DNA of 64,000 nucleotides from Candidatus Moraniibacteriota bacterium (GTDB taxonomy: Bacteria; Patescibacteriota; Minisyncoccia; Moranbacterales; GCA-2747515). The first letter of the stretch is position 1. Each line of letters opens with the position of its first letter. Of the stretch, positions 13,091-64,000 are shown in pieces. The DNA is taken from NCBI GenBank assembly GCA_046116545.1, contig CP175956.1, positions 961,734-1,025,733 of the forward strand. The letters are read 5' to 3'. The notes under the pieces were generated by a model. That model ran no database searches. It worked only from the letters and a program-made list of their open reading frames with translations, and was not told the DNA's origin. The position numbers were made by a program, and so were the translations under genes.

Positions 13091-13101
13091 TCCTTATATT
13101 A

Positions 13102-13740: not shown

Positions 13741-13744
13741 AAAT

Positions 13745-14308: not shown

Positions 14309-14314
14309 ATAATT

Positions 14315-15376: not shown

Positions 15377-15426
15377 TTATTTTTTATTTGTTTTTACCTA
15401 GTTACATGATATCACATACTCCACTT

Positions 15427-16803: not shown

Positions 16804-16828
16804 ATAATTTAAATTATTTTACGTAAAA

Positions 16829-17461: not shown

Positions 17462-17479
17462 ATTAATTATGCATCAAAA

Positions 17480-18964: not shown

Positions 18965-19029
18965 TTATTATATTTTAATTTTTGTATTATATTTCAATAA
19001 CCTACAAATTCATTATAGCATACGACACC

Positions 19030-20553: not shown

Positions 20554-20559
20554 TTATTT

Positions 20560-21216
20560 TTATGTTGGAATATCATCAAATTCTGTTAAGTTTCTAACAA
20601 CAACAAAAGATTCTATCCGCACATCATCTGGAGAACGAAATATTGGTTCTGGATTAACATATAATACTATTTTTACCATACGTACGTCTGCCGGTGTTGC
20701 CATCGTTTCCAAAGCCATTCCATTAATATCATCATATTCATAAATAGTACCATCAACATCATAATATTCAAAAATGACCTCTCCCGATGCAACATCATTT
20801 GTAATATTATTTGCCATATCTCGCACTTCTTCAGTACCACTATATTCTGGTGGCGTACTGGTATCAGGCTCAGTAATACCTCTTTTGAAGATGCTATCTT
20901 CAACAAAATATCTAACTCTCTCAACTATGCCATCATTATCATAGTCTGCATAAAAAATAAACTCATGATCATCAGCTAACTCTATTGGAAATGCACCATT
21001 TTGTGCTTGTTGTGCCTTGCGCATAGTATTTATAGCATCTTCAACAGCATTGCTTGCAACAAATGATGCCACCCCACTCTTAATTGCAAAGTGATTCATA
21101 GTCCACATCTTAACAAAAAAAAGTGATGCACCCAACATAACAATTGACGTAATTGCAATTGTTACAATCATCTCAACAAATGTCACACCTTTATAAGTTT
21201 TTTTAAAATTAATCAT
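20560..21216 (-). CDS. Type IV minor pilin / pseudopilin with prepilin leader, paralog of 16829..17461
   Basis: YKG|VTFVEMIVTIAITSIV leader. Shared block ER(I/V)RYF with the other 210-aa pilin. Confidence 0.7.
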   Translation of the reverse strand: MINFKKTYKGVTFVEMIVTIAITSIVMLGASLFFVKMWTMNHFAIKSGVASFVASNAVEDAINTMRKAQQAQNGAFPIELADDHEFIFYADYDNDGIVERVRYFVEDSIFKRGITEPDTSTPPEYSGTEEVRDMANNITNDVASGEVIFEYYDVDGTIYEYDDINGMALETMATPADVRMVKIVLYVNPEPIFRSPDDVRIESFVVVRNLTEFDDIPT

Positions 21217-22745: not shown

Positions 22746-22746
22746 A

Positions 22747-23964: not shown

Positions 23965-23973
23965 TATTTTATT

Positions 23974-29074: not shown

Positions 29075-31045
29075 CTACTGCCAATACCCACTAGCATCAG
29101 AAGTGGCTGTGTATGTCACAGATCCAGTATAAACTCCTGAAGGTTGTGATGGTGATACATCTACTTTGTAACATACATCAGTTGTTGATGAAGTTGAATT
29201 ATATGCTGTGTATGCTGCTATTGCTTGAGCTGTTTGTGGTACACCTGCATATTCTGCATCATCATTTGTTGTTCCTTCTTCACACAGATCTCCTGAGGTT
29301 GTCCATATGTTATTGAAGGTGTTATGAGTTGTATCATTTTGTGGAAATTGTATTACTGAGAAACCTAAACCTTTTGTTGTTGGAGCGTTCCAAGATTCTG
29401 TTACTTTTGTTGTTTGATCAAATTGTGTTAGGTCTGGTATTTCATCTGTATTATTTGAATGTACTAGGGTTGTATTTGAAGCTCCATTATCATTTATCAT
29501 TGATAGGTAGTAACCTTGGGTATCATTTGTTGTTACTATACAAGTTGATTGTCCTACTGCTGGAGTTCCTGCTATTACTATTCCTGGGTTTGCTACTGTT
29601 CCTAGTATTACATCATAATCTCCTGTTGATCCATCTTTATCATAACAATCCATTGATAGGGTTGCATTTACTTCTACATTTAGGTTTAGGTCATCTATTC
29701 CTGATATTGTTCCATCTCCGTTTACAATATAAGTTGTTGCATGGTTTGTTGTGAATGTACATATTCCGTTTGTTACTGTACATGTTGTATGGGTATTCCA
29801 TGTTACTTCTCCTTCTAGTTGTGAAAGGACTTCTAGTTCCATATCATTGTAAGCTTCGCTTACAGTTATTTCCATTGTTATATCATTTGAGAAGGTTAGG
29901 TTTTCATTTGGTATACCTAATCTTACTGCTCCTACTGCATTTGGATGATCTCCTCTTTCTTCATTTAATGTATTTTGGGTTATGAAGTTTTCAAAGTTGA
30001 AGTTTCCATTTAATGCTTCTGTTATCACTGTATTATTTGGGAATATTGCATTTGTTGTGTTTGATTGAAATGTTACTTGTGCACTTGCTGTTATCTGAGT
30101 TGTTGAGTCTATTGTTCCGTTATCTACTGAGATGTAGCTATCATTTACTGCATCGTTTAATTGTGAACTGTCTGGATTATTTATCACTATATCCATTGGG
30201 CCTGAGTAATAAATTACCAAACGACCTTCATTACCTGGAAGTCCCACACTTCCACCAACTCCAATACCAATTTGATAATCAGAATCACTAGTATTAGCAG
30301 GAGTTATTCCAGAGCCTCCCTCAATAACTATATCATCTGCAGCCGGATCCACATGACTTGAACCTCCACCGCCTGACCGAACATTACCATTATTATAAAG
30401 TCCTGCATAACCACCATACCAACCAGCTCCACCACCGCCACCGCCACCGTCACCGTCACCTCCAATAAATTGTCCAGCACCACTTGATTGAGTTCCTCCT
30501 GCTCCACCATCACATCCTGCACCTGCAGATCCAATTAATCCTCCACCTGCTCCACCTGCTCCAGAACATTTATTAAAACAAGTGCCATCCTCAGCCTTCG
30601 TACCTCCTGCTCCACCACCACCAGCTGTTATGATTTCTGTAGAATCAGAATTACGAATAATACCACTTCGCCCACCACCACCAGCACGTCCAGACCCGCC
30701 ACCACCAAAACCCCCAGCTCCACCATCATGACCACCACCAGCTACAATAACTGTAAATGCACTCCCTGGAATTACATTAAACGTTCCTGTAGCATAACCA
30801 GCACCACCTCCAGGATAACCTGTTCCACTAGGACAAGAACTAGAAGCCCATGGATCTTCACCTGCGCCACCTCCACCCCAAGCTTTAATTTGAATTGAAT
30901 CACATCCAGTTGGTACTGTAAAATTTTGATTAATTCCACTATATTCAAAAACTTGACTACCTGGTTGACAACCAGCATGGGCTGGGGACATAAAGAAAAA
31001 TACACCAATGCATAATACCCCAGTTCCATATAATATTTTACTCAT
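29075..31045 (-). CDS. Secreted protein with an ALK/LTK-like glycine-rich domain (Gly_rich family) and a large Thr/Asn-rich C-terminal region
   Basis: Signal peptide (MSKILYGTGVLCIGVFFFMSPAHA). Then FEYSGINQNFTVPTGCDSIQIKAWGGGGAG... and long poly-Gly blocks typical of the bacterial Gly_rich domain. Confidence 0.5.
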   Translation of the reverse strand: MSKILYGTGVLCIGVFFFMSPAHAGCQPGSQVFEYSGINQNFTVPTGCDSIQIKAWGGGGAGEDPWASSSCPSGTGYPGGGAGYATGTFNVIPGSAFTVIVAGGGHDGGAGGFGGGGSGRAGGGGRSGIIRNSDSTEIITAGGGGAGGTKAEDGTCFNKCSGAGGAGGGLIGSAGAGCDGGAGGTQSSGAGQFIGGDGDGGGGGGGAGWYGGYAGLYNNGNVRSGGGGSSHVDPAADDIVIEGGSGITPANTSDSDYQIGIGVGGSVGLPGNEGRLVIYYSGPMDIVINNPDSSQLNDAVNDSYISVDNGTIDSTTQITASAQVTFQSNTTNAIFPNNTVITEALNGNFNFENFITQNTLNEERGDHPNAVGAVRLGIPNENLTFSNDITMEITVSEAYNDMELEVLSQLEGEVTWNTHTTCTVTNGICTFTTNHATTYIVNGDGTISGIDDLNLNVEVNATLSMDCYDKDGSTGDYDVILGTVANPGIVIAGTPAVGQSTCIVTTNDTQGYYLSMINDNGASNTTLVHSNNTDEIPDLTQFDQTTKVTESWNAPTTKGLGFSVIQFPQNDTTHNTFNNIWTTSGDLCEEGTTNDDAEYAGVPQTAQAIAAYTAYNSTSSTTDVCYKVDVSPSQPSGVYTGSVTYTATSDASGYWQ

Positions 31046-43815: not shown

Positions 43816-45744
43816 TTATCTAACTTTTATTTCCGTCATGAAATCAAATTTTGAAATATGATCAGAAATAAATACTGGAAAACCAGGCACAACACTCTCT
43901 AAAATTATCTTCTCTATCACATCTTTATATTCACTTTCTATAACACTTAATAAATCATCATGTTTTTCACCTCTTATATCATCTCTAAACGAATCAACAT
44001 CTACAGTAGCTACCACAACTGCCGATCCTCTAGCACTCATTTTTACACTATCATTTTCAAAATCAGAACTAACATTACTATATTCAACATTTACATCAAC
44101 TTTTTCTCTATTATATTGATTATATTTTTCTGATAAATTAGATTCCATCACACCTATAACATCTTGCTGCGAAAATATGATAGCCTCAACATCAGAAACT
44201 ATTTCATACATAAATTGATCAGCCATTGTTCCAGCACTAACACTTGGCTCTGATCTTAATATTTCATATTTCACATTTTCATCCAATAACACTTCATCAT
44301 CTGGTCTCAATAATCCATTAATTTGACTTTTTATATATTCATCTAATTCTTCATTCATCTGATTTTCAGCTGCTTCAATATCCTCTTCAGCTACCAACGA
44401 AACTCCATCACCTCCAACGCCTCCACCGGTCATAACCCGTTCACTCATTGCATAAATTTTTTCTTTTTTCGGACCACTACTAAATCCAGGTATTGAAAAT
44501 TTTGTTGGAGCAATATTTGAAGACTCTCCTGATTTATCTGCAATAACTAATGCCTCAACACTACCAGGCTCTGTCCCTTTCATACCAGGAACCGTTGCAG
44601 CCTTAACTAATCTAAACAAAGTTCCATCTTCAGCTAAAAATCTTGTAGTGGCAACTAACGGTTGCGAAACATTACTAAATTCATTAAATATAGTAATGGT
44701 TCCCTGTGCTTTTTGTGCATCGACATCGCCAGTGCCTGTTGCATTAAACGTCTTTGTAAATGTCATATCTCTTTCGATTACTCTAGCTGGTATAATCCTA
44801 CGGTCTGCATCAGCTATGCTTTGATCAGCTTTTGCTGTCATTTCCATGGTCTCATCAATATTGATTTGCTTTGGTTCTATCTCCAATTTTGTTTTTGGCA
44901 AGATTATTACCATAACAGCAATAACCAACATGACACTAACTGCGCCAACAAAACTCCTAACTACAAACTTTGAAGTACTTGACATTGCAACTTCACTTTG
45001 TTGTTTTTTAGCTTTTTTAACTTTTTTCTTATTTTTAGTATGGTTTTTTTCAGCACTCTCAGAATACTGGTTTTGAAAATTATTTTGATGTGACATACCA
45101 TTGCTAACGACTGAATTTTTCAGTGTTTTTTCATACTCATCAAATCCCATTTCTTGCTTTTTAGCATAACCACCGTGCATTTGTTGCTTTGGTGCTACTT
45201 TAGATTGTCGTTGATGTACTTCGCCACCCATTGCAACACCACTTACGCTACTATTAGAAATATTTCTTTGAGGAACAGCATTCATCCTAGATGATTTTTT
45301 TGCTTGTTGCATACTCTCACTATGACCCATATCCATCCCAACACTAGAACTAACTATAGGAGTAGAAATAGGGATTTGATTCTGATTTATCTTATTATTT
45401 TTTACAGGAATATGTTGATTTTTCTTGATTTCAACATGATTTTCTTGATTTGTTCCCAGTGAATTCGCCCTAATGTCTTCATCTTCAGCAAAATACTTAA
45501 CATTTATCCCTGCACGCTGCGCAAAAGACATCCCATCTTCATCATTAGTGATAAGAAGCATCTTTTTACCATATCTCTTTGATTCTTGTAATAACAGCTT
45601 CAGGTTAACAACACTCTGCAATAACAAAGCATGCTGAGGAACAATTACTTCTATATTAATATATGACGATTGCTTTAATCTATCTATAACAGTTGTTATT
45701 TCCTCATCTACATCTACATAGATTTTTTGTACATTATTATTCAT
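43816..45744 (-). CDS. Hypothetical membrane protein (642 aa) between ftsA and the alpha operon
   Basis: Central TM helix (FVGAVSVMLVIAVMVIILP). Q/N/K-rich linker. No recognisable catalytic motifs. Confidence 0.4.
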   Translation of the reverse strand: MNNNVQKIYVDVDEEITTVIDRLKQSSYINIEVIVPQHALLLQSVVNLKLLLQESKRYGKKMLLITNDEDGMSFAQRAGINVKYFAEDEDIRANSLGTNQENHVEIKKNQHIPVKNNKINQNQIPISTPIVSSSVGMDMGHSESMQQAKKSSRMNAVPQRNISNSSVSGVAMGGEVHQRQSKVAPKQQMHGGYAKKQEMGFDEYEKTLKNSVVSNGMSHQNNFQNQYSESAEKNHTKNKKKVKKAKKQQSEVAMSSTSKFVVRSFVGAVSVMLVIAVMVIILPKTKLEIEPKQINIDETMEMTAKADQSIADADRRIIPARVIERDMTFTKTFNATGTGDVDAQKAQGTITIFNEFSNVSQPLVATTRFLAEDGTLFRLVKAATVPGMKGTEPGSVEALVIADKSGESSNIAPTKFSIPGFSSGPKKEKIYAMSERVMTGGGVGGDGVSLVAEEDIEAAENQMNEELDEYIKSQINGLLRPDDEVLLDENVKYEILRSEPSVSAGTMADQFMYEIVSDVEAIIFSQQDVIGVMESNLSEKYNQYNREKVDVNVEYSNVSSDFENDSVKMSARGSAVVVATVDVDSFRDDIRGEKHDDLLSVIESEYKDVIEKIILESVVPGFPVFISDHISKFDFMTEIKVR

Positions 45745-53266: not shown

Positions 53267-54001
53267 TTAAGTCTTTACTTTATCATTTTTAATGATGATA
53301 TCCTCAAAAACACTACTCTGTTTTACAATAACAATTTGCTGTTTCACCAATTCCAAAATTGCCAAAAATGATACAACCACCTCAGATTTATCTGTCGCAT
53401 TTTTAGTTATTTCAGAAAATATAATTATAGCTCTTTGCTCTACACTCTTTTGAATAAATACAATTCTACGCTCCAATGATATCACATCACTAACAATTTT
53501 TTCTTCCAATGATTCCATCCTGGGAATAGTATGTAATGATGATAAAAATGCACTTCTCAAGTCTTCAAGTACAATTCCTTCAGGCGGACAAAAATGAGCA
53601 TCCTGACCCCAAACTCCTTTATTACTGTAAGAACCTTGTGTTACTTCAAAAAAATCATTAAATGTTTCATTATGATCTTTAAAAACTTTGAGAGCTGCTA
53701 ACTGTCTTTCAAGTTCCTCTAAATCACTTTCTTCTTCCTCATCTAATTGTAGCAATGGAAGAAGCGCCTGAGATTTAACCAGAATCAGCTTGGCTGCCAC
53801 TGACAAAAAATCAGTAAGATTACTGAGTGAAATATCTTCTTTTTCATTGATATAATTCAAATATTCATCTGTAATATTAGCTAGCGAAACTCTAGTAATA
53901 TCAACCTTTTCCTTATCAATTAAATCCAAGAGTAAATCAAGAGGACCTTCAAATTGTTCAGTTTTTACTTTATAAGTCATAAAAATAGTATACCACAACA
54001 A
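53267..54001 (-). CDS. scpA: Segregation and condensation protein A
   Basis: FEGPLDLLLDLIDKEKVDITRVSLANITDEYL is the ScpA N-terminal signature. Followed by scpB. Confidence 0.75.
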   Translation of the reverse strand: MLWYTIFMTYKVKTEQFEGPLDLLLDLIDKEKVDITRVSLANITDEYLNYINEKEDISLSNLTDFLSVAAKLILVKSQALLPLLQLDEEEESDLEELERQLAALKVFKDHNETFNDFFEVTQGSYSNKGVWGQDAHFCPPEGIVLEDLRSAFLSSLHTIPRMESLEEKIVSDVISLERRIVFIQKSVEQRAIIIFSEITKNATDKSEVVVSFLAILELVKQQIVIVKQSSVFEDIIIKNDKVKT

Positions 54002-54338: not shown

Positions 54339-57300
54339 TTAATTAACAACAAACCAATCAACAACTAAATCCTCCTCTAATATATTTCCAATTTCAACGA
54401 TAAATCCACCTTCAATAATATTTTTCACTTGCGTAGCAACAATATTAACAGCATCTCTAACTGTCACAAACACACGACTACCCTCATGAACTCCATCACT
54501 TTCAATTGAAACCTCAGTCTCACCAGCAACTATAGTAGCAGTTCCAATGGATGAAGCATTGATTTCGTTACCTTGTTCATCGTGTGTTGTTATATCGTCA
54601 TTGATGTTCAATGTATTTGTTTCTATACTATTTACTTTTAAGTCATCTAATACAGTTAGACCTTCTATCGTGGTTATGAGTCTTGTAGTAGACATTGTAT
54701 TATTATCTATTGTAAACAAGAATCTTTCATTTATGGCTAGAACTGTATCTGAATTTTTAGACACTGTACTTGCTAGATCTGACTGATATCCATCTAATTC
54801 ATCCATTCTATCTTCTATTTCAGTTAGAGTTTCTGTTGCTAAAGTATTTGCATTTATTTGTAGTGACAGTACCTCGTGCCTGTCATTAATTCCTCCTATG
54901 TCATCCTGAACTTGATTCAGGATCTCAGATGCATCATTTGTTTGTAATGACAAACCTAATTGTTTATCATTTAAATCTATAATTTGAGTATCAATTTCTG
55001 TTATCTTTTGTGGAGTTGGTAGGTTTGATATATCTATCAGATTTAGATTTGGTACTTCTTGTCCTGTTGTTATATCTGTTATATATATTAGTTGTTGTCC
55101 TGTTAGTTTTTCTATCAATCTTACTGTTTTTGTCATATCTACATTTATTGATTTGTTGTCTTTTTCTGAGTAATAGCTCCATGCTAATTCTTCACTTTCT
55201 CCTCCGGGTATAGTTGAGAAATTATGTGGAGATAGAGTTGTTGTATTTCCTGCTTCATCTCTTACTCTTAGTTCATGGGACCCACTTTGATCTACTGCAA
55301 ACAGTTGTATCCCATTAACTATTGATGTTGTTGGAGCTATTGAGTTTGAGATTGTTAGGATATTATCTGCGTTTGTTCCATAGTTTGAACTTCCTATTCC
55401 TACATTTCCTGATGTGTAGGCTATATTATTTCCTGTTTGGGTCCAGAGTGATGATGCGCTTGATGTTCCACTATCAATGAGTGAACCTGAAAACTTAGTT
55501 TGATAAATTGTACCACCAATGATTGTTCCACCACCATTATTCACCCACAATTCTACATAGTCAGTTGTTCCATTCATATCAATAATATCGGACGTCATAG
55601 TAAGTCCATCTGAATCCCGAGTAAACCCATGTGACCAATAGGTGTCATTTTTTTTAATCATAACAGAACATGACGTCGTGTCATCGCAATATGCAGAACC
55701 CGTTAATGAATATTTTCCTGTGATTGTTGGCTGAAACTTATCAGTTACTAAATCAAAATCATTATTAGAATCAAATGCCTCATTTGACCATGTTACTTTT
55801 GTCCATGTGTTTGTTGTTACTGTTTGATTTGTTCCATTTTTATTTACACTAAAACTAGATGATAATTCGACTGCACTATCTGCACATTCCCATGCACTAC
55901 CTGCTTCATTATATGAAAGAGTTTGACCATCTGTACATGTTGGTAAACTTGTTCCAGATGAAGTCATCACAGCGTCAGTCGTTTCAACTGAAGTTGTTTT
56001 GAATGATTCTTCAGCAATAGCTATGTAAATGTAGGTACTTCCATTATAATTCATCTCAGGATTTGCACCTCTTTGTTTAAAACCATTGGATAATATATCC
56101 AACTGATTTTGAGGGGATCTCGTAGAACCATCATTTTCAACTTCTAAACTATTTGCCCAAAGTTCTTGTGTTGCTACATTAGAAGGATCTCTTGCCGTAT
56201 CATGAATGCTCCAAGATTCTGCACGATTTGTATCTTTAATCATTATCCACCTTGGTTTAAATCCTGTATTAACAAAAGGTCCATCTGCACTTCCATTTCC
56301 TGTATAAGACCCAACTTTAGAGTAACCAGGAACAGAGTGGAATGCGTAGGCGATGTGAGTATTTCCACTATGATTAATGCCATCAACCGAACCCAATGAG
56401 AACACTGAAGGTGTCGGACTTGTATTATTCCAAGATCCAAAATTTTGTGCGTCTGATGTTAAATTTAAACGCAACGAATCAACATTGCCAGTAGGTTCAC
56501 TATAAACTTGCCAATTCCAAACATCACTATCTCTATCTTTAAAAATCAACATTTCAGGCTCAGAATTTAATCCATGTCCAACTGTTGCTCCTGCTATTCC
56601 ATTTCCTGTATAGCTAATTATTGAAAATCCAGCATCAGTGTTAGCAGAAACTTGCGAAGAAATTGTTCCACTTGTATTGGCAATAGCAGCTCCTCCCGCT
56701 TTCCATGCCCAAGCGACATAAGTTGCAGCATTAGAATTTGCTTGCGCTGATGTACCAACTTCAAATCCATTTGATAAAAAATTAGTTACATGATTGTAGG
56801 TATTTTCTATAGCTGTAGAATCTGATGATAATCCCTTAAGAACCCCTCTCACAGAATCTACTAAGGCATGTGAATTTAAATTGCTGCGTTGCTTTAACCA
56901 CACTAAATCAGGCTGAAAATCCAATCCTGTAATTGATTGTGTAGTTCCATTACCTGTATAAGTTGCTACATCAAAATGTTCCGATGGTTTAATTATTGTT
57001 GAACTTGGTAAATTCGCTGAAGAAAGAGCTTTGAATCCAGTAGGTGGAGTATACTTGAAATATCCGTTAGCATCAGAGTCGTAAGTTAAACTGGCTTGAG
57101 CATTTTGACCAAAATTGATAGCTACTTTATCTGCAGTAGACACCACTGGGAATACCGTATCACTTAAACCACTAAATGCAGTGCCTTGACTTGACCCATT
57201 TTTATAAAATTCAATAGTTTTTGCATCCATATCTACTGCAATACCAATTACATCATTTGTCGTAAATGTATCACCGTAACTAGCACCACTTCCATTATTC

Positions 57301-60300
57301 CATTTTTGACCACTATCACCCGCATAAACATATCCAGCTGGAGTACTTCCAACCCATGTATCCAATCCTGTTTCTGTATCAGTTGCAACTCCAGCATGAA
57401 TATCATTAGCATTTGATTCCCATGTTGTTTCCCAATACCATTTGCCAGATGATATACCAATAGTACCTCTAGGACTTCTGTATGCTACCGATGAAGCAAA
57501 TTCGAGATTTCCCTCTGTATATGTTTCATCAGAAATATTTAACAATGGATTAAATACTGCAAAATTATTAAACGGAGTATCAATAACTTGATCAGTCGCA
57601 TCAAGGTTGTTTGTTGTCCATGTATTGCTATTTCCAGATATATCTGCACCTAGATTTGTATCATCTTCAAAATTTAAGTGAAACCCATTTGTTCCGTAAG
57701 TACCAGAGTAATCTTTTGCTATCCATTTTCCTGTTGTGGCATCTATTTCTCCAAAACTTGTTGGAGTAAGTGCTTGACCATCAATAAAGTTGATATCGGA
57801 GAGGTAACCATCAAAAGGAAGTGTGGCATCATCACTAAGATCCACTCCAGCTCCTAGATAATGAGCAATGTTACTATTTGACATTAGGTCAGCATCCTGA
57901 GCAGGATAATTACTTGTAGTAAACTCTGTTATCTGTTCTCCATCAACAAATAATTTTGTTCTATTGGAAGCAGTTGCTTGTGTTGTGTCAATTTGCACAG
58001 CTATATGATACCAAGTGGATGAATCCCTATAAACAGAACTTGTTATCAACATTAAAGCATCTGTGTTTTGACTATCGTTAATTCTAATTTGATCATCAGC
58101 CGTAAAATTCATAACAAAGAAGTCTCCACCACCCGTCCTTGTTTCAACAAAGAATTGATTTGTTCCCAAATTTCCTCTCTTCACCCAACCACTCCAAGTC
58201 CAAGTCTTCCTATTTCCAGCAGAGCTTGGTGTTCTTGATAGATAAGCTGAATCATCGTCATTGAAACGAAGCGCGTTTTTAATAATGTCTTCTTGAACAC
58301 ACTCCCAAGTACTATTTACATCATTATAAGTTAAATCCCCTCCATTTGGACAAGTTGGTGTACTCCCACTGGAGAAAACACCCCAAGCAGTTCCATTACA
58401 AAACTCCATGACTTTTGTAGAGTCATTGTATCTCATTGCACCTTCTTTGTTTGCGTCACATGCATCTGTATCACCTCCTAATTGAATAGAACTTGTTGTT
58501 TTAATTTTATTATCAAAATTAAATGTATTACTTGCTGTAAGGTAACTTATCACACCTTCATCTCCATCTTCTCCTATATGTAATGATGATGGTCCTAGGT
58601 ATAGATCTCTAAATCTATTTGTTGAAGATCCTAGGTCGTATGTATCATCTGTATCTGGTCCTATATGTCCTGCTACTTGTAGTGTGAAGTTATCTGGTGT
58701 TGTTGTTCCTATTCCTATATTTCCTATATCGTAATATGCGTCTGATCCATTTGCTGTCCATAGGGATGAACCACTTGTTCCGGTTGTATCATATTTTACT
58801 TTCCAATCTTTATTTTCATCTAATGTTGGGAATACTGTGTTTATTGGGGCTTTATAGATTACATTTGTAGCAACGCTTCCGTTATACCCTCCAAAAAGGT
58901 ACACATAATCACCAACAATTGCCATCTGAGAAACTCCTAAATTACCTGGTAATACCGAACTTGTATTTACCCAATTTGTTGGGTCTGATATTGGTGCTCT
59001 ATAAATCAGACTTGTATACGATCCATTGTACCCTCCAAAAAGATATACGTAATCACCAATAATGGCTAATTGTGAAAGGCGTAAGATACCTGGTAATGTT
59101 GAACCTGTATCTACCCAATTTGTTGGGTCTGATATTGGTGCACGATAAATTTCATTCATAGCTGTACCAGTACTATCACCACCAAAAAGATATACGTGAT
59201 CACCAATAATTGCCACTTGAGATTGACTGAAAGTTCCTGGTAATGTTGAACCTGTATCTACCCAATTTGTTGGGTCTGCTGTTGGTGCTCTATATATCGT
59301 ATTTACAACTAAACTATCTACACCACCAAAAAGATATACGTAATCACCAATAATGGCTACTTGAGAATTTCGCAGATTACTTGGTAATGTTGAACCTGTA
59401 TCTACCCAATTTGTTGGGTCTGCTGTTGGTGCTCTATATATAGTATTTACACTTACAGCAGCAGCATATCCACCAAAAAGATATACGTAATCACCAATAA
59501 TGGCTACTTGAGAATTTCGCAGATTACTTGGTAATGTTGAACCTGTATCTACCCAATTTGTTGGGTCTGCTATTGGTGCACGATAAACTATACTTGTATC
59601 TGAACCATTACCACCTCCAAAAAGATATATGTAATCACCAATAATTGCTGTTTGCGAATTATACAAAGCACCTGGTAATACAGCTCCCGTATCAACCCAC
59701 TCATTCTCAACAAGCTTTGGTTGATAAGCAGCTGAAGCAGTTCCACTCGAACTCCCAGCAGCAGAAGAACTTATTGTTACAGTTTGTGTTCCTGGTGATT
59801 TTTTAACTATTGTTAGAGTTTGATCTCCTAATCCTGTTGTTTGATATACAGTATAATCATTTGTTACATTTTTTTGTGCGTATCCTGTTGCATCAATATT
59901 TACATCTATTCTTTTTAGATTTGGGTTTTGTGTATCAGATGTTGAATAGAAAGTTGATGATAGATCAAAAGTTGTTTGATCTACTGCAAAGGATCCTGAT
60001 AATTCCCATTCTGAATCATGTATTTCTTCTAGCACTGTAGAATTCATTTGATTCATTATTCCACTTTCTACTGCTTTTGATATTGCGCTATTTGCATTAT
60101 CTTCTATTCCTGTTGTACTCCATGTATCTACGTTATCTCTAAAATACCAAGTTCCATCAGTTCCAGAGTGGACTGATGCTTCTTTACTTGCAATGTCTCT
60201 CCATGCAGTTCCTGTCCATACTTTAAATGTATGTCTATTATTGAAACTTGCTGCGTAAAATATTGATTGAGAGTTTAGATTTTCTAATACACTTACTGAG

Positions 60301-63300
60301 TTTATATCTGTCCAGTTTGCACTATCTAATCCATCCTTATTTGTTATTGTTGTTACGTATGCTCCTGTATAGTTTCCTAGGGTTTTTTCGTAGAATTCTA
60401 ATTCTGAAATACTTACATAACTTTGACCATTATTTGCAGTAATATTTATACGATAATATCTATATGCTGTATTATTTGTAAATCCACTATAATTTCTTTT
60501 TTCATTATTTAACCAAGTCATTTCAGATAATCGCGTATCTAAAGCAGTCCAAGTGTTTGCATCATTGCTTCCTTCAAATGTCCAGTCCTTTGGAGATGAA
60601 GTCGTACCATCTGTATCTCGACTTCTTACAGAATATTCATAAACAATAGCCTCATTCCCTGAACCTAAATCATATTGAAGCCAACCTGTTCTAATTCCAC
60701 TTTGAGAAATCCATTCTGATGCATTATTATCATCAAATCCATATGCTGGAAGAAATGATGTACTATATGTTGTACTAGCAGTTGCAGCACCCCCAGTAGC
60801 AATATCACTAACATATTTAACACTAGTAGCCTGTCCCAATGTATGAGCTGCATTACTTCCATCGAAGTATGTTCCATATATATTATCTACATCATATATT
60901 CCTAATTCTATTTCATTATCATTTGTGATATGAACTGATTCATTTGCTGTTCCATCTCCTGTTATGTCTGTAATTGTAAACCACTCATCTTCCATTTTAA
61001 ATCTTGATCCTACTCTTACTTTATCTGCAGTATTTCCACTTCCTATTGATACTGCTGTATCTGATACGTCTTCGAAGTGTCCTTTGTTATTGTGTTGGTC
61101 TGCGAAGAATTCTAATTCTGAAATACTTACATAACTTTGACCATTATTTGCAGTAATATTTAATCTATAATATCTATACGCTGTATCATTTGTAAATCCT
61201 GAATAGTTTCTTTTTTCAATATCTAACCATCCCATCTCAGCTGATCGTGTATCCAATGCAGTCCATGTATTTGCATCATTACTTCCTTCAAATGTCCAAT
61301 CCTTTGGAGATGAAGTATCGGCACCCGTATCTCGACTTCTTACAGAATATTCATAAATAATAGCTTCATTTCCTGAACCTAAATCATATTGCAACCAACC
61401 TGTTGGCACTCCATTTTGAGATATCCACTCTGATACATTATTATCATCAAATGCATATGATGGTAAAAATGTTCCATCATAATATGTACTAGCAGAAGCA
61501 GCACCACCCGTAGCCAAATCAGGACCAGTGCCTCCACCAGTATCAACTAAATCAACTTGGAATTGAGTTATGTTTTCTTTTAGGTCTTCTTGAGTATAGT
61601 TATCTTCTGAATTGTAATTTATGTTTTGTATTTTATCAGTTTCTGTTTGTTCTTCTGTGATACTTACAATTGCTGAACCTGATACTGTTGTTGATTCTCC
61701 TTGGCTTAGAGTTACTTGAGTTTGAGTTACTCCACTTCCTCCTGTTCCTGTTGATAGTCCTCCCCATATAGTTCCATTACAAAACTCCATGACTTTTGTA
61801 GTGTCATTGTATCTCATTGCACCTTCTTTTGTTACGTCACAAGCTGATGCGTCATTATTTAGAGTTATACTTCCTCCTATTGCTAGATTGTTTCCATCAT
61901 ATGTGAAGTTTGAGTTTTGAGTTATTGCATTTCCTGCACTATTTGCAAATTGTATTTGATTTGCACTTAGGCTTGCTGGTGTATCTGTTAATCCTGTATA
62001 TGTTGAAACTCCTCCACTTGATGTTAGAGAGTTCCATGTTGAACCATCGTATCCTTCTAGGTCTGTTCCTGACCATCTTATCATTCCTGCTACTGCATTT
62101 GTACTTGTTCCAAATACTGCTGCTTTATCAAAGTTGAAAGCTTCGTTTGTTGTATCGTAGCTTATTATTCCTTCATTTCCGTTTTCTCCTATATGTAGAG
62201 AGTTTGAGCTTAGGTATAGATCTTTCCATCTTAATAAGGTTGTTCCTAGATTATATGCATCGTCTGTTTCTGGAACTATATCTCCATCTACTTGTAGTTT
62301 ATAGTCTGGGGTTGTTGTTCCTATTCCTATGTTTCCAGTATTCAATACTGTAAGATATTTTGTAGTAAAGTTTGCATCTCCAATATGATATGCATTCGAT
62401 GCATCATCATCGACCCCCGTATAAAATCTTTCTGTAAAATCACTATTTGAATATATTGTTGCTACCTGATTATCAACTCCTGATGTATTAGACCTTAATT
62501 CTGTAGACAAATGCTGTTGACCACCTAATGATAATAATTGACTTGGACTATCTGTCCCTATTCCTACGTTTCCTGCTGTATAATTAATATTTGGTGCATC
62601 ATGAGTCCATAGTCCATTTCCTCCGTCTATTCTTGAGCCTGAAAATGATGTACTTGTTGCAGCACCTGCCACATCTTCAGAAGTAGCTGCATTGAGCATG
62701 CTCGCATAAACCTCAAAATAATCCGTTGTTCCGTTTGCTTCAACAACTTTTGATATTGTAACGGTATGATGTCTTGCGGTATCCATATCAGGTGTATACT
62801 CACGTAAGATATTTGAACCATTTTTATACAACATAACATAAGATCTGTTATTTGCATCTACTGAATTAACTGTCACTGTTGTTGTTAAAAGGTACTTACC
62901 AGGAACTGTTGGCTGAAATCTCTCATTTGTAAGGTCAAAATCACCATTAGAGTCAAAGGTCTCTGTTGACCATGTTATTTTTGCCGGATTGTCAGTAATT
63001 GTTTGAACTACATTATTTTTATGCACACTAAAACTAGGACTTATATCTCCACTCATATCTGCCCAAGATGTGTCACCTAATCCATCCGTCATAAGCACTT
63101 GTCCAGCATTTCCATATCCTGATGGTGTATCTGATAATCCTGTTAAAGTTGTTGCACCTATAGCTGATGAGTCTACCCAGTTTGTTCCTGTTGCTGTTGA
63201 AGTTAACACTTGTCCATTTAATCCTGGATCATTATTTGCATCATAATATGATCCTTCCAATCTTAAGTTTCCATTTATATGAAGGAGTTGTGATGGACTT

Positions 63301-64000
63301 ATTATTCCTATTCCAACATTTCCACCTTTTTGGAATGTCATAACATCAACACCTGTTGTGACATCTCTAATATCTAAATTATCACTAGAAGCAGTACTAA
63401 GAATATTCCATTGTTGTGTAGCATCCTTTATTGCTATTCCATTTGCACCATCACTTGAATCTTCTATCAAAATCACAGATGTTGGTCCATAAAGATGTAA
63501 TCTTTGATCAGGATTATCTATTCCTATACCAACTTTTTTATTAGAAGAATTTACAAAAAAAGCATCCGTATTTACCGTAAAATCATCATTAACAGATAAA
63601 GTCCCAGTCTTAGTTTGAGCTGTAGCAGAAGTATCAATATAGTTATCAGCAGTAAATCCATTAAACCTATGTGAGTTTAAAGCAAAACCTGTAGGAGTTA
63701 TCTTTCTCCTTGGAGTCATTTCTGGATTTGAGTTTATTGTTACTCCTAAGTAATAGTTTGAATCAAAAGATATATCTAATAGGTTATCTCCTGTTTCTCC
63801 TAGAGTTGTACTAAATATTCCATTTGTTATTGTAATTGTTTTTGAAGTTGGAGTTCCACATGATCCTCTACTTGTCCATAGACAATTTCCTCCTGTGTCT
63901 GCATCGTATATTGTTAATGTAAAATCATAATCTCCATCTGATACTGCTACGTTATTAGTATCTGTTAGTTTTCCATGATATGTTAGTTCACTGTCTGGTG
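54339..64000 (-). CDS. Giant multi-domain surface/adhesin-like protein (more than 3,220 aa; 5' end lies outside the window)
   Basis: The reading frame stays open from 54339 to the window edge; the Met at 63719 is only the first in-frame Met inside the window. The protein contains repeated GN(V/I)GIGTxxP tail-fibre-like motifs, two discoidin (F5/8 type C)-like domains, six Kelch-like blades (VAIIGDYVYLFGG), LamG/ConA-like and SPRY-like segments, and a C-terminal coiled region. Confidence 0.8.
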   Translation of the reverse strand, partial: PDSELTYHGKLTDTNNVAVSDGDYDFTLTIYDADTGGNCLWTSRGSCGTPTSKTITITNGIFSTTLGETGDNLLDISFDSNYYLGVTINSNPEMTPRRKITPTGFALNSHRFNGFTADNYIDTSATAQTKTGTLSVNDDFTVNTDAFFVNSSNKKVGIGIDNPDQRLHLYGPTSVILIEDSSDGANGIAIKDATQQWNILSTASSDNLDIRDVTTGVDVMTFQKGGNVGIGIISPSQLLHINGNLRLEGSYYDANNDPGLNGQVLTSTATGTNWVDSSAIGATTLTGLSDTPSGYGNAGQVLMTDGLGDTSWADMSGDISPSFSVHKNNVVQTITDNPAKITWSTETFDSNGDFDLTNERFQPTVPGKYLLTTTVTVNSVDANNRSYVMLYKNGSNILREYTPDMDTARHHTVTISKVVEANGTTDYFEVYASMLNAATSEDVAGAATSTSFSGSRIDGGNGLWTHDAPNINYTAGNVGIGTDSPSQLLSLGGQQHLSTELRSNTSGVDNQVATIYSNSDFTERFYTGVDDDASNAYHIGDANFTTKYLTVLNTGNIGIGTTTPDYKLQVDGDIVPETDDAYNLGTTLLRWKDLYLSSNSLHIGENGNEGIISYDTTNEAFNFDKAAVFGTSTNAVAGMIRWSGTDLEGYDGSTWNSLTSSGGVSTYTGLTDTPASLSANQIQFANSAGNAITQNSNFTYDGNNLAIGGSITLNNDASACDVTKEGAMRYNDTTKVMEFCNGTIWGGLSTGTGGSGVTQTQVTLSQGESTTVSGSAIVSITEEQTETDKIQNINYNSEDNYTQEDLKENITQFQVDLVDTGGGTGPDLATGGAASASTYYDGTFLPSYAFDDNNVSEWISQNGVPTGWLQYDLGSGNEAIIYEYSVRSRDTGADTSSPKDWTFEGSNDANTWTALDTRSAEMGWLDIEKRNYSGFTNDTAYRYYRLNITANNGQSYVSISELEFFADQHNNKGHFEDVSDTAVSIGSGNTADKVRVGSRFKMEDEWFTITDITGDGTANESVHITNDNEIELGIYDVDNIYGTYFDGSNAAHTLGQATSVKYVSDIATGGAATASTTYSTSFLPAYGFDDNNASEWISQSGIRTGWLQYDLGSGNEAIVYEYSVRSRDTDGTTSSPKDWTFEGSNDANTWTALDTRLSEMTWLNNEKRNYSGFTNNTAYRYYRINITANNGQSYVSISELEFYEKTLGNYTGAYVTTITNKDGLDSANWTDINSVSVLENLNSQSIFYAASFNNRHTFKVWTGTAWRDIASKEASVHSGTDGTWYFRDNVDTWSTTGIEDNANSAISKAVESGIMNQMNSTVLEEIHDSEWELSGSFAVDQTTFDLSSTFYSTSDTQNPNLKRIDVNIDATGYAQKNVTNDYTVYQTTGLGDQTLTIVKKSPGTQTVTISSSAAGSSSGTASAAYQPKLVENEWVDTGAVLPGALYNSQTAIIGDYIYLFGGGNGSDTSIVYRAPIADPTNWVDTGSTLPSNLRNSQVAIIGDYVYLFGGYAAAVSVNTIYRAPTADPTNWVDTGSTLPSNLRNSQVAIIGDYVYLFGGVDSLVVNTIYRAPTADPTNWVDTGSTLPGTFSQSQVAIIGDHVYLFGGDSTGTAMNEIYRAPISDPTNWVDTGSTLPGILRLSQLAIIGDYVYLFGGYNGSYTSLIYRAPISDPTNWVNTSSVLPGNLGVSQMAIVGDYVYLFGGYNGSVATNVIYKAPINTVFPTLDENKDWKVKYDTTGTSGSSLWTANGSDAYYDIGNIGIGTTTPDNFTLQVAGHIGPDTDDTYDLGSSTNRFRDLYLGPSSLHIGEDGDEGVISYLTASNTFNFDNKIKTTSSIQLGGDTDACDANKEGAMRYNDSTKVMEFCNGTAWGVFSSGSTPTCPNGGDLTYNDVNSTWECVQEDIIKNALRFNDDDSAYLSRTPSSAGNRKTWTWSGWVKRGNLGTNQFFVETRTGGGDFFVMNFTADDQIRINDSQNTDALMLITSSVYRDSSTWYHIAVQIDTTQATASNRTKLFVDGEQITEFTTSNYPAQDADLMSNSNIAHYLGAGVDLSDDATLPFDGYLSDINFIDGQALTPTSFGEIDATTGKWIAKDYSGTYGTNGFHLNFEDDTNLGADISGNSNTWTTNNLDATDQVIDTPFNNFAVFNPLLNISDETYTEGNLEFASSVAYRSPRGTIGISSGKWYWETTWESNANDIHAGVATDTETGLDTWVGSTPAGYVYAGDSGQKWNNGSGASYGDTFTTNDVIGIAVDMDAKTIEFYKNGSSQGTAFSGLSDTVFPVVSTADKVAINFGQNAQASLTYDSDANGYFKYTPPTGFKALSSANLPSSTIIKPSEHFDVATYTGNGTTQSITGLDFQPDLVWLKQRSNLNSHALVDSVRGVLKGLSSDSTAIENTYNHVTNFLSNGFEVGTSAQANSNAATYVAWAWKAGGAAIANTSGTISSQVSANTDAGFSIISYTGNGIAGATVGHGLNSEPEMLIFKDRDSDVWNWQVYSEPTGNVDSLRLNLTSDAQNFGSWNNTSPTPSVFSLGSVDGINHSGNTHIAYAFHSVPGYSKVGSYTGNGSADGPFVNTGFKPRWIMIKDTNRAESWSIHDTARDPSNVATQELWANSLEVENDGSTRSPQNQLDILSNGFKQRGANPEMNYNGSTYIYIAIAEESFKTTSVETTDAVMTSSGTSLPTCTDGQTLSYNEAGSAWECADSAVELSSSFSVNKNGTNQTVTTNTWTKVTWSNEAFDSNNDFDLVTDKFQPTITGKYSLTGSAYCDDTTSCSVMIKKNDTYWSHGFTRDSDGLTMTSDIIDMNGTTDYVELWVNNGGGTIIGGTIYQTKFSGSLIDSGTSSASSLWTQTGNNIAYTSGNVGIGSSNYGTNADNILTISNSIAPTTSIVNGIQLFAVDQSGSHELRVRDEAGNTTTLSPHNFSTIPGGESEELAWSYYSEKDNKSINVDMTKTVRLIEKLTGQQLIYITDITTGQEVPNLNLIDISNLPTPQKITEIDTQIIDLNDKQLGLSLQTNDASEILNQVQDDIGGINDRHEVLSLQINANTLATETLTEIEDRMDELDGYQSDLASTVSKNSDTVLAINERFLFTIDNNTMSTTRLITTIEGLTVLDDLKVNSIETNTLNINDDITTHDEQGNEINASSIGTATIVAGETEVSIESDGVHEGSRVFVTVRDAVNIVATQVKNIIEGGFIVEIGNILEEDLVVDWFVVN
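58830..59730 (-). repeat. Six tandem ~147-bp near-identical coding repeats (Kelch-like blades) inside the giant gene
   Basis: The DNA block ...aaaaagatatacgtaatcaccaataatggctacttgagaatttcgcagattacttggtaatgttgaacctgtatctacccaatttgttgggtctg... recurs at ~58880, 59030, 59180, 59330, 59480 and 59625. Confidence 0.75.
60370..61420 (-). repeat. Two ~330-bp near-identical copies (60370..60700 and 61090..61420) encoding the duplicated discoidin-like domain
   Basis: Both copies encode ...WTFEGSNDANTWTALDTR...NYSGFTN(D/N)TAYRYYR(L/I)NITANNGQSYVSISELEF(F/Y). The DNA is more than 90% identical by eye (for example tcgtagaattctaattctgaaatacttacataactttgaccattatttgcagtaatattta in both). Confidence 0.7.

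What the first reader, a model, noticed from the sequence alone, without database searches (positions are those of the whole stretch)
54339..64000. Giant protein of more than 3,200 aa built from eukaryote-like adhesion modules and tail-fibre-like repeats; the ORF is cut by the window edge
The reading frame stays open from 54339 to position 64000, so the true protein is longer than the 3,126 aa listed. Visible modules, from the N-terminus: multiple GN(V/I)GIGT(T/D)xP...L.(V/L).G motifs (tail-fibre-like), two discoidin-like domains, six Kelch-like blades, a ConA/LamG-like segment (ALRFNDDDSAYLSRTP...WTWSGWVKRG), an SPRY-like segment (GKWYWETTWESN) and a C-terminal coiled region. No signal peptide can be assessed because the N-terminus is missing. 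In small-genome episymbiotic bacteria such giant proteins are thought to mediate host attachment.
Basis: partly seen in the sequence, partly recalled or inferred. Interest (0 to 1): 0.65.

Follow-up and report, generated by a model that had tools for sequence, protein, structure and literature searches.

The report
Giant phage-fibre-like surface protein
A tiny-genome (Moraniibacteriota) bacterium encodes a protein of about 3,250 amino acids that looks like an exported, phage-tail-fibre-style surface fibre carrying many sugar- or protein-binding heads, one of them a complete block otherwise found in marine phages; it probably sticks the cell to a partner, but that function is inferred.

Summary
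On the minus strand one frame is open from the stop at 54339-54341 to the window edge: 3,219 codons with one stop, against 142-345 stops in the other five frames. The C-terminal coiled region is only weakly supported.

New points:
- Neighbouring proteins are identical to those of a 1.29 Mb Candidatus Moraniibacteriota genome.
- In 13 homologues the window's first residues (PDxELTYHGKLTD) directly follow a signal-peptide-like leader, so probably only about 25-45 residues are missing.
- Residues 1916-2671 (LamG-SPRY-DUF7483) align end to end with proteins encoded next to tail-fibre genes in marine podoviruses.
- A strain 99.9% identical downstream carries an unrelated head, and the switch falls exactly at a joint motif.

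Best reading: a Sec-exported, probably trimeric, modular adhesin fibre. It is unlikely to be a virion part, because the N-domain is absent from phage records and relatives sit among housekeeping genes. Function is unproven. It is a new variant of a known kind, of moderate interest.

The parts
54339..64000 (-). Giant ORF: 3,219 codons visible, stop at 54339-54341, 5' end cut by the window edge
63684..63998 (-). aa 1-105: conserved N-terminal Ig-like beta-sandwich with Cys pair 39/47. It defines the family, and conservation extends to about aa 135.
   Evidence: AF2 pLDDT above 90 for aa 1-100, with no significant PDB match. 12,621 representative proteins match at E<=1e-3, nearly always just after a leader peptide. 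No Pfam hit. No match in phage records.
63099..63578 (-). aa 141-300: first stalk segment with VGIG/GNVGIG joint motifs
   Evidence: weak tail-fibre PHROG hit
62613..63056 (-). aa 315-462: gC1q-like head A
   Evidence: Pfam C1q 23.8 bits against a cut-off of 23.7. A profile of 21 such domains hits only gC1q-family PDB chains. 45% identical to head B.
61719..62612 (-). aa 463-760: stalk 1 with two joint motifs, the DDAYNLG..RWKDLY motif and a Cys-pair knot (720/740)
   Evidence: 56-75% identical to stalk 2 over the shared segments
61113..61499 (-). aa 834-962: F5/8 type C (discoidin) domain 1
   Evidence: Pfam E 3.3e-15, 2 stretches; tail-protein PHROGs
60390..60785 (-). aa 1072-1203: F5/8 type C (discoidin) domain 2, 85% identical to domain 1
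   Evidence: 300-nt DNA repeat at 88% identity
59757..60389 (-). aa 1204-1414: segment of unknown fold
   Evidence: No Pfam or PHROG hit
58839..59756 (-). aa 1415-1720: six-bladed Kelch-type propeller
   Evidence: Kelch Pfam families above cut-off; six blade motifs; 144-bp tandem repeat
58284..58766 (-). aa 1745-1905: stalk 2 with a joint motif, the DDTYDLGSSTNRFRDLY motif and Cys pairs 1847/1867 and 1883/1900
   Evidence: The motif matches the trimeric fibre gp28 of cyanophage P-SCSP1u (PDB 8I4M) at E 0.007.
55986..58253 (-). aa 1916-2671: phage-type cassette of LamG (1916-2085), SPRY (2186-2298) and DUF7483 (2337-2664)
   Evidence: phrog_19943 at 659 bits. tblastn covers 99% of the query at 36-44% identity in 50 phage records. 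Pfam. AF2 pLDDT 91, pTM 0.90. Foldseek against PDB and BFVD.
55446..55874 (-). aa 2709-2851: gC1q-like head B, replaced by an unrelated 168-aa head in strain L001
55083..55433 (-). aa 2856-2972: joint motif plus a roughly 110-aa domain that is the extreme C-terminus of many shorter fibre proteins
   Evidence: phage tail-module contexts L009 and L010
54342..55010 (-). aa 2997-3219: heptad-like (coiled-coil-like) stretch followed by a terminal beta-rich domain ending DWFVVN; this is the family-conserved C-terminus
   Evidence: 25-44% identical to the C-termini of P0001, P0002, P0003, P0007, P0015, P0018 and P0406. Heptad cluster at aa 2997-3087.

Best explanation
The gene encodes a Sec-exported, probably homotrimeric surface fibre of a Moraniibacteriota (Patescibacteria) bacterium, built on the plan of a phage tail fibre.

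Architecture: the two ends are constant. The N-terminal end is a leader peptide followed by an Ig-like domain. The C-terminal end is a fibre-end domain, a coiled-coil-like stretch and a beta-rich domain. Between them lies a string of interchangeable binding heads: gC1q-like, two discoidin domains, a six-bladed Kelch propeller, LamG-SPRY-DUF7483, and a second gC1q-like head. The heads are separated by stalk segments that each begin with the same joint motif (W..x..GN[VI]GIG).

Proposed working: the fibre projects from the cell. Its lectin-like heads bind glycans or proteins on another cell (host or partner) or on a surface. Recombination at the repeated joint motifs exchanges heads between strains and so changes binding specificity.

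Shown:
- the ORF and its domain content;
- the phage relationship of the cassette;
- the family's constant ends;
- the head replacement between strains;
- the CPR origin.

Inferred:
- the signal peptide of this particular protein;
- trimerisation;
- surface location;
- adhesion as the function;
- recombination at the joints as the mechanism of exchange.
For: Export:
- 13 of 13 homologues that carry the window's first motif have a Met-initiated hydrophobic leader of 10-43 aa ending in AA or AT directly before it.
- Window aa 1 aligns to homologue residues 11-44.
- In about 130 of the 150 best representatives the N-domain starts at about residue 11-90.
- An Ignavibacteriales relative likewise has a leader followed by the N-domain.
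- All 12 cysteines form 6 close pairs in conserved motifs. There is no TM segment in the visible 3,219 aa.

Cellular rather than virion:
- The N-domain and the C-terminal 364 aa have no match in 50,697 phage records.
- Downstream genes are ScpA/B, a D-Ala-D-Ala carboxypeptidase (Peptidase_S11), MraY, PGK and enolase, on the same strand.
- Two paralogues in a related 1.18 Mb genome sit among MnmA, NrdR, ComEC and EF-Tu genes.
- GC3 and codon usage equal the background genes.

Fibre and trimer:
- gC1q domains, known from solved structures to be trimeric.
- Shorter family members carry Peptidase_S74, the trimer-chaperone domain.
- The stalk motif is shared with the trimeric fibre gp28 of P-SCSP1u.
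- NCBI names relatives 'tail fiber domain-containing protein'.

Binding heads: Pfam and PHROG hits. The cassette is encoded right after the T7-type tail-fibre gene in podoviruses.

Modularity:
- Giant relatives with the same N-domain carry other middles, such as FG-GAP with S74, or Gly-rich with LamG and F5/8C.
- Strain L001 is 99.9% identical over 12.8 kb, then switches to an unrelated head exactly at the W of the joint motif, aa 2852.
Against: - The protein's own N-terminus was not seen, and the upstream sequence could not be retrieved.
- No anchoring device was found: no TM segment, no LPXTG, no S-layer or peptidoglycan-binding domain. How the fibre stays on the cell is unknown.
- No ligand, host or expression data exist.
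- Trimerisation was not modelled.
- The giant protein is absent from both protein libraries although its neighbours are present. This could mean that the source record treats it as a pseudogene.
- The head exchange rests on one strain pair.
- The function of the phage cassette is itself unknown; no paper was found on DUF7483.
Confidence: 0.6

Rival explanations
1. It is a virion component: the tail fibre of a prophage, a tailocin or another phage-derived particle whose other genes lie upstream, outside the window.
For: - Strong phage matches: phrog_19943 'virion structural protein' at 659 bits and phrog_24898 'tail fiber protein' at 312 bits.
- The cassette aligns end to end with podovirus proteins.
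- The domain at aa 2856-2972 ends true phage fibre genes.
- The upstream region is unseen.
Against: - Homologues start with signal-peptide-like leaders, which virion proteins assembled in the cytoplasm do not need.
- The N-domain, which would be the particle-attachment end, has no match in 50,697 phage records, and the first 300 aa give no strong PHROG hit.
- There is no Phage_T7_tail or other adaptor domain.
- Relatives sit among housekeeping genes with no capsid, portal or terminase genes nearby.
- Downstream genes are core cell genes on the same strand.
- Cysteines are paired.
Confidence: 0.1
2. It is an exported binding fibre whose targets are not a host cell. Candidates are environmental polysaccharides or particles (nutrient capture, biofilm matrix), a protective fibrous coat, or a decoy that binds phages.
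For: - All recognised heads are generic carbohydrate- or protein-binding folds.
- The N-domain family is not restricted to CPR: it occurs in Ignavibacteriales, Saprospiraceae and Lewinellaceae and has 12,621 representatives.
- No data link it to any host.
Against: - Nothing excludes this reading.
- The CPR lifestyle and the literature favour cell attachment, but only by analogy (PMC8080830; PMC10633639).
- No catalytic domain was found that would suggest polymer degradation.
Confidence: 0.2
3. The ORF is not a functional single gene. Either it is an assembly chimera created by the repeated joint, Kelch and discoidin sequences, or it is a pseudogene disrupted just upstream.
For: - Other assemblies break inside the gene.
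- It contains internal DNA repeats of 80-90% identity.
- The protein is absent from both protein libraries although ten neighbours are present.
- No other assembly confirms aa 1-2851.
Against: - 3,219 codons without a stop in AT-rich DNA (about 1e-114 by chance) and uniform codon usage across modules. A chimera would have to keep the frame at every junction.
- The source contig is 1.29 Mb, which is most easily explained by a long-read or curated assembly.
- Relatives of 3,191-4,422 aa with the same N-domain exist.
- The search for homologous proteins seems to list only proteins up to about 1.7 times the query length, so part of the absence is a property of the tool.
Confidence: 0.07

Closest known systems
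'Tail fiber domain-containing proteins' of Parcubacteria/Patescibacteria MAGs (for example P0004, P0001, P0003, P0007, P0018; 800-1,200 aa)
   Same: - Leader peptide followed by the same N-domain: 57-71% BLASTP identity for the five closest (P0001, P0005, P0006, P0009, P0010), and 36-71% across the 13 compared.
- The same GNVGIG joints and DD.Y.LG..RW.DLY stalk.
- The same C-terminal coiled-coil-like stretch plus beta domain ending DWF/MIV.

   Different: The window protein is about three times longer. It lacks the Peptidase_S74 chaperone domain that most of them have. It strings six or more globular heads in series, where they carry one variable middle.
LamG-(DUF7483)-SPRY-DUF7483 proteins of marine phages: Methylophilales phage MEP301 gp16, Roseobacter phage CRP-811, Pelagibacter phage HTVC011P gp36+gp37, cyanophage SS120-1
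   Same: - aa 1916-2671 align over 99% of their length at 36-44% identity.
- The same Pfam set.
- Predicted structures of viral proteins match at E down to 1.5e-70.
   Different: - The phage proteins are stand-alone genes of about 790-1,300 aa, placed after the T7-type tail-fibre gene or in T4-like genomes. Most have two DUF7483 copies.
- Here one copy of the block is embedded in the middle of a cellular exported protein.
- Their function in phages is not established; labels such as 'tail fiber' or 'virion structural protein' are annotations.
Giant surface proteins of CPR bacteria, for example the 1,392-4,163 aa membrane proteins of Vampirococcus lugosii (PMC8080830)
   Same: A giant protein in a tiny genome, made of interaction and adhesion domains, and proposed but not proven to mediate recognition of and attachment to the host.
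   Different: - Different domain repertoire: WD40, PKD, integrin, fibronectin and DUF11 there, against tail-fibre stalks, gC1q, discoidin, Kelch and LamG-SPRY-DUF7483 here.
- Those proteins are predicted to be membrane proteins. No TM segment is visible here.
gC1q-headed trimeric fibres (C1q, collagen VIII/X NC1, adiponectin, cerebellin; from my own knowledge also Bacillus exosporium BclA)
   Same: A globular gC1q/TNF-like jelly-roll head on a fibrous stalk. The profile of this domain hits only that family in the PDB. In many shorter relatives it is the terminal tip.
   Different: There are no collagen Gly-X-Y repeats. In the giant protein the heads are internal 'beads' rather than tips. Sequence similarity is remote, at the Pfam cut-off.
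T7-like phage tail fibres, for example gp28 of cyanophage P-SCSP1u (PDB 8I4M)
   Same: The shared stalk motif GH[IL].P..[DN][DN]TYDLG[ST]S..R[FW]R[DN][LV]Y near the distal end. That fibre is a homotrimer.
   Different: There is no T7-type N-terminal virion-docking domain here. The match is short (46 aa) and borderline (E 0.007).

Membership tests
Pfam DUF7483 (PF24299) | Full-length match to the 330-position model above the gathering score (27 bits) | tested here: met
   377 bits, model positions 1-329 of 330, aa 2337-2664
SPRY (PF00622) | Match above the gathering score, and the SPRY beta-sandwich fold | tested here: met
   77.3 bits against 26.3. PDB sequence hits to RanBP9/10, RyR and Ash2L. 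The AF2 model matches Ash2L SPRY with TMt 0.84-0.86.
LamG / ConA-like (Laminin_G_3, PF13385) | Match above the gathering score (27.6 bits) | tested here: met
   44.6 bits, E 2e-11, when aa 1900-2190 are scanned alone. It was not listed in the whole-protein scan. Homologues carry PF13385. Laminin and neurexin LNS structures appear among the Foldseek hits.
F5/8 type C (discoidin, PF00754) | Match above the gathering score; two copies claimed | tested here: met
   56.8 bits against 28.2, 2 stretches; the copies are 85% identical
Kelch beta-propeller | Kelch-repeat matches above gathering scores; six blades | tested here: met
   PF24681 at 67.3 bits against 50, Kelch_6 at 62.9 against 25.3, Kelch_1 at 32.5 against 20.1. 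Six blade motifs at a spacing of about 48 aa.
gC1q domain (PF00386) | Match to the C1q model, or specific similarity to solved gC1q domains | tested here: met
   At the cut-off for the single sequence (23.8 against 23.7 bits; 22.2 and 16.2 bits on the isolated segments). A 21-sequence profile hits 36 PDB sequences, all of the gC1q family, over the full domain at E 7e-8.
Peptidase_S74 tail fibres/spikes (self-cleaving C-terminal intramolecular chaperone) | PF13884 domain near the C-terminus | tested here: not met
   No PF13884 hit at E<=0.1 on the whole protein or at E<=1 on the C-terminal 350 aa, although many shorter relatives have it
Patescibacteria/Bacteroidota 'N-domain fibre' family (unnamed; defined here) | Conserved about 135-aa N-terminal domain | tested here: met
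   57-71% BLASTP identity to the closest members, up to 76% by phmmer; 1,670 representatives at E<=1e-10
Patescibacteria/Bacteroidota 'N-domain fibre' family (unnamed; defined here) | Signal-peptide-like leader directly before the N-domain | not testable with these tools
   The leader lies beyond base 64000, and scans of genome and metagenome collections did not recover the upstream DNA. It is present in 13 of 13 homologues.
Patescibacteria/Bacteroidota 'N-domain fibre' family (unnamed; defined here) | Conserved C-terminal coiled-coil-like stretch plus beta domain (...DWF/MIV) | tested here: met
   25-44% identity over about 200-380 aa to P0001, P0002, P0003, P0007, P0015, P0018, P0406 and P0408
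Phage virion tail fibre | Encoded within a phage structural/tail gene module | tested here: inconclusive
   Downstream genes are housekeeping and upstream is unseen. Paralogues in a related genome have no phage neighbours.
Phage virion tail fibre | N-terminal domain that docks to the tail (for example Phage_T7_tail), shared with phages | tested here: not met
   No such Pfam hit. The N-domain has no tblastn match in 50,697 phage records and no strong PHROG hit.
LPXTG-anchored Gram-positive adhesins | C-terminal LPXTG motif, hydrophobic segment and charged tail | tested here: not met
   No LP.T[GAS] motif anywhere. The protein ends ...DLVVDWFVVN without a hydrophobic segment.

The most novel reading that the evidence does not exclude
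The episymbiont has co-opted phage receptor-binding hardware for its own host recognition. On this reading the LamG-SPRY-DUF7483 block, and perhaps the other heads, bind the same kind of envelope receptors that podoviruses use on the partner bacterium. Strains re-target the fibre by swapping heads at the conserved joint motifs. That would make it a cellular counterpart of phage host-range evolution, and the fibre's module content could then predict which organisms a CPR bacterium attaches to.
Probability: 0.2. Interest if true: 0.8.

Novelty: new variant of a known kind. Interest (0 to 1): 0.45.

Why it matters
How Patescibacteria find and hold on to their partners is largely unknown outside a few cultured Saccharibacteria. 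This locus offers a concrete candidate that can be tested. It is an exported fibre with defined, separately expressible heads, one of which is a block abundant in marine phages and itself of unknown function. If the heads determine partner specificity, their sequences could be used to predict host-symbiont pairs from metagenomes. The strain-level head exchange would be a readable record of host switching. The work also defines two unannotated domains: a very large N-terminal domain family (12,621 representatives, no Pfam model) and a fibre-end domain. If the protein is only a generic sticky coat, it is one more giant adhesin.

Tried and rejected
Searches that failed or found nothing:
- The whole-protein homology search timed out.
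- An exact look-up of ScpA with the TTG start failed. With the shorter start it returned only the same contig, which breaks inside the gene.
- The upstream DNA was not recovered. The genome-contig scan found only three remote relatives. An exact 32-mer and a protein scan of metagenome contigs found nothing.
- No paralogue of the N-terminal, C-terminal or stalk segments exists elsewhere in the window.
- NCBIfam gave no hit.
- PHROG scans of the remaining segments gave only weak hits.
- No terminator was found in the 337-nt spacer before ScpA.
- The Rfam scan of the window found only three tRNAs.
- No paper mentions DUF7483.

Ideas rejected or left weak:
- Recent horizontal transfer of the cassette: GC3 and codon usage of every module lie within the range of the background genes.
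- My heptad heuristic for the coiled coil is weak overall (41 windows against 29 +/- 15 in shuffles) and is informative only through its clustering at aa 2997-3087.
- A diversity-generating retroelement (DGR) was considered as the source of variation and not pursued. No C-type-lectin target domain is present in the protein, and the strain difference is a whole-module replacement.
Full report
1. OBSERVATION

The feature lies on the minus strand. The frame ending at the stop codon 54339-54341 is open up to the window edge, giving 3,219 full codons plus two bases. The 3,126 aa in the ORF list only counts from the first in-frame ATG at 63719. In the same 9.66 kb the other five frames contain 142-345 stops, and their longest open runs are 66-98 codons. 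From base composition the chance of 3,219 stop-free codons is about 1e-114. The ORF is real.

2. ORGANISM AND SURROUNDINGS

Ten window proteins are identical to NCBI proteins XLQ19892-XLQ19938, labelled 'MAG... [Candidatus Moraniibacteriota bacterium]', from a contig of 1,286,331 bp. The lineage is Patescibacteria group > Parcubacteria group.

Directly downstream on the same strand lie ScpA, ScpB, a D-Ala-D-Ala carboxypeptidase (Peptidase_S11), MraY, PGK, enolase, a PfkB kinase, an FtsA-like gene and ribosomal protein genes. A type IV pilus cluster lies further on. Nothing phage-like is visible. The upstream side is outside the window and could not be recovered from the genome or metagenome collections. 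Other assemblies of the same species break inside the gene. The internal DNA repeats explain this: a 144-bp unit repeated 5.2 times, and a 300-nt pair at 88% identity.

3. DOMAIN MAP (aa numbered from the first visible codon)

| aa | module | evidence (calls) |
|---|---|---|
| 1-105 | Ig-like beta-sandwich; pLDDT above 90; no significant PDB match; no Pfam model | 41, 65, 67, 69 |
| 141-300 | stalk with joint motifs | 92 |
| 315-462 | gC1q-like head A | 7, 61 |
| 463-760 | stalk 1 | 23, 92 |
| 834-962 and 1072-1203 | two F5/8 type C domains, 85% identical | 7, 23 |
| 1204-1414 | unknown | 41, 86 |
| 1415-1720 | six Kelch blades | 7, 97 |
| 1745-1905 | stalk 2, 56-75% identical to stalk 1 over shared segments | 23 |
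| 1916-2085 | LamG (Laminin_G_3, 44.6 bits, seen when scanned alone) | 41 |
| 2186-2298 | SPRY | 7, 30, 49 |
| 2337-2664 | DUF7483, 377 bits, the strongest hit | 7 |
| 2709-2851 | gC1q-like head B, 45% identical to A | 23 |
| 2856-2972 | fibre-end domain | 82, 83 |
| 2997-3090 | heptad-like stretch | 92 |
| about 3100-3219 | beta-rich end | 53 |

The gC1q assignment sits at the Pfam cut-off for the single sequence. It is secured by a profile of 21 such domains that hits only gC1q-family chains in the PDB.

The AF2 model of aa 1905-2675 is confident (pLDDT 91, pTM 0.90) and all-beta.

All 12 cysteines form six close pairs inside conserved motifs. There is no TM segment and no LPXTG motif.

The 'coiled' C-terminal region is only weakly supported.

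4. THE MISSING N-TERMINUS

Thirteen homologues contain the window's first residues (PDxELTYHGKLTD). In each, the motif directly follows a Met-initiated hydrophobic leader of 10-43 aa ending in AA or AT. The two shortest leaders are probably mis-called starts.

BLAST places window aa 1 at homologue residues 11-44. Of the 150 best representatives in a 1.84-billion-protein library, about 130 have the domain starting at about residue 11-90. An Ignavibacteriales relative shows the same leader plus domain. The two leftover bases at the window edge (..CA) fit an Ala or Thr codon.

The inference is that only about 25-45 residues, a Sec-type signal peptide, are missing, and that the full protein has about 3,250-3,265 aa. 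This is homology-based and was not observed.

5. A FAMILY WITH CONSTANT ENDS AND A VARIABLE MIDDLE

The N-domain defines a large unannotated family: 12,621 representatives at E<=1e-3 and 1,670 at E<=1e-10. Lengths run from about 200 to 4,422 aa. Close members in Parcubacteria/Moraniibacteria MAGs are named 'tail fiber domain-containing protein'.

They share with the giant protein the N-domain, the stalk motifs and the C-terminal coiled-coil-like stretch plus beta domain. Most also have a Peptidase_S74 chaperone domain, which the giant protein lacks.

Giant relatives carry other middles: FG-GAP repeats with S74, or Gly-rich with LamG and F5/8C.

In a related 1.18 Mb genome, two tandem 1,184-aa paralogues sit among MnmA, NrdR, ComEC and EF-Tu genes without phage genes.

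6. THE PHAGE CONNECTION

Residues 1916-2671 match phrog_19943 ('virion structural protein', 659 bits) and phrog_24898 ('tail fiber protein', 312 bits). They align over 99% of their length at 36-44% identity with proteins of Methylophilales phage MEP301 (gp16), Roseobacter phage CRP-811, Pelagibacter phages (HTVC011P gp36+gp37), cyanophage SS120-1 and others. That is 86 records, 50 of them with a match covering at least 80% of the query.

In T7-like genomes the gene follows the tail-fibre gene. It also occurs in a T4-like context.

More than 7,900 metagenomic relatives exist, typically 1,100-1,300 aa on phage-sized contigs, and mostly with two DUF7483 copies. BFVD structures match at E down to 1.5e-70.

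The fibre-end domain (aa 2856-2972) is the extreme C-terminus of about 60 shorter proteins. The two contexts examined are true phage tail modules.

The stalk motif matches the trimeric fibre gp28 of cyanophage P-SCSP1u (PDB 8I4M, E 0.007).

The discoidin and gC1q heads have only domain-level similarity to phage tail proteins.

In contrast, the N-domain and the C-terminal 364 aa have no match in 50,697 phage records.

GC3 and codon usage of every module equal the background genes, so nothing points to a recent transfer.

7. STRAIN VARIATION

Contig SWCD01020385.1 (GCA_008633255.1) is 99.9% identical to the window over 12.8 kb, up to window base 55445. Its remaining 546 nt encode an unrelated 168-aa head with no Pfam or PHROG hit. 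The switch falls exactly at the W of the joint motif WTQTGNNIAYTSGNVGIG, aa 2852.

So a whole head (gC1q-like B) is replaced between near-identical strains at a sequence that recurs at every module boundary. That recombination at the joints is the mechanism is an inference from one strain pair.

8. BEST EXPLANATION AND RIVALS

Best explanation (0.6): a Sec-exported, probably trimeric fibre. It has a constant base and a constant end, with a chain of interchangeable lectin-like heads. It acts as an adhesin towards another cell or a surface.
- Shown: the ORF, the domains, the phage relationship, the constant ends, the head swap and the CPR origin.
- Inferred: the leader of this protein, trimerisation (from gC1q, S74 in relatives and the fibre motif), surface exposure, adhesion, and the exchange mechanism.

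Rivals:
- A virion or tailocin fibre (0.1). The leaders, the non-phage N-domain and the housekeeping contexts speak against it, but the upstream side is unseen.
- An exported binder for non-host targets (0.2). This is not excluded.
- A chimeric assembly or pseudogene (0.07). The frame and the uniform codon usage argue against it. One point is unexplained: the protein is absent from both protein libraries although its neighbours are present. The homology tool seems to list only proteins up to about 1.7 times the query length, which explains only part of that absence.

9. COMPARISON WITH WHAT IS KNOWN, AND VERDICT

Giant adhesion-domain proteins in CPR bacteria are known and are proposed to mediate host attachment (PMC8080830). 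Adhesins are essential for epibiotic growth in Saccharibacteria (PMC10633639). Relatives are already labelled tail-fibre-like in databases.

What differs here is the architecture. It is a cellular, leader-bearing fibre that strings six or more heads in series. It contains a complete podovirus tail-region cassette, lacks the S74 chaperone, and exchanges heads between strains.

I file it as a new variant of a known kind, interest 0.45. The most novel reading not excluded is that the episymbiont uses phage-type receptor-binding modules to recognise its host and re-targets them by module swapping. I give that a probability of about 0.2; it would be of high interest if true.

Noticed in passing
window 13100-25749, minus strand: A type IV pilus gene cluster. 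It contains PilB-type ATPase (23974-25749), PilC (22747-23964) and PilM (14315-15376). It also has two unusually large pilin-like proteins with an N-terminal methylation motif plus a CarboxypepD_reg-like domain (21213-22823, 536 aa; 17480-18964, 494 aa). Two ORFs without Pfam hits lie between them (19030-20553 and 15427-16803). This is another candidate attachment system in the same window.
   Followed up: partly
window 43816-45744 (-) and 29075-31045 (-): Two long ORFs (642 and 656 aa) with no Pfam hit. The first sits between the FtsA-like gene and infA and is conserved in the other strain's contig. The second is called 'hypothetical protein ACKUBY_05015' in the source record.
   Followed up: no
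window 1-64000: Almost all genes are on the minus strand, and GC skew is strongly negative (about -0.3) over the whole window. It is much weaker (-0.11 to -0.19) inside the giant gene.
   Followed up: no
L001 1-546 (GCA_008633255.1, SWCD01020385.1): The alternative head that replaces gC1q-like domain B in a 99.9%-identical strain begins GLFSGTIANDTMYYVFLIEKDDGTTDIGFD. It has no Pfam or PHROG match, and its nature is unknown.
   Followed up: partly
L008 10001-17133 (JGI 3300076001, 1.18 Mb contig): Two tandem 1,184-aa paralogues of the fibre family, both with Peptidase_S74, in a related complete-size genome. An rve-family integrase/transposase gene lies 3 kb upstream.
   Followed up: no
L006 5995-8357 (Pelagibacter phage HTVC011P); L011 9001-12402; L012 9001-12936: The phage cassette varies in form. 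In HTVC011P it is split into two genes (gp36 with LamG-SPRY, gp37 with DUF7483). In most podovirus relatives it has two DUF7483 copies. It is also present in a T4-like genome next to DNA polymerase and UvsX-like genes.
   Followed up: partly
window 53267-54001 (-): The ScpA start is ambiguous. The longest ORF starts at TTG 54001 (244 aa), but the protein on record is the 237-aa form starting at 53980. A 337-nt spacer without a recognisable terminator separates it from the giant gene.
   Followed up: partly
(tool behaviour): the search for homologous proteins returned no protein longer than about 1.7 times the query length: at most 1,207, 1,311 and 613 aa for queries of 700, 771 and 350 aa. Failure to recover a giant protein with a partial query is therefore not evidence that it is absent.
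   Followed up: no
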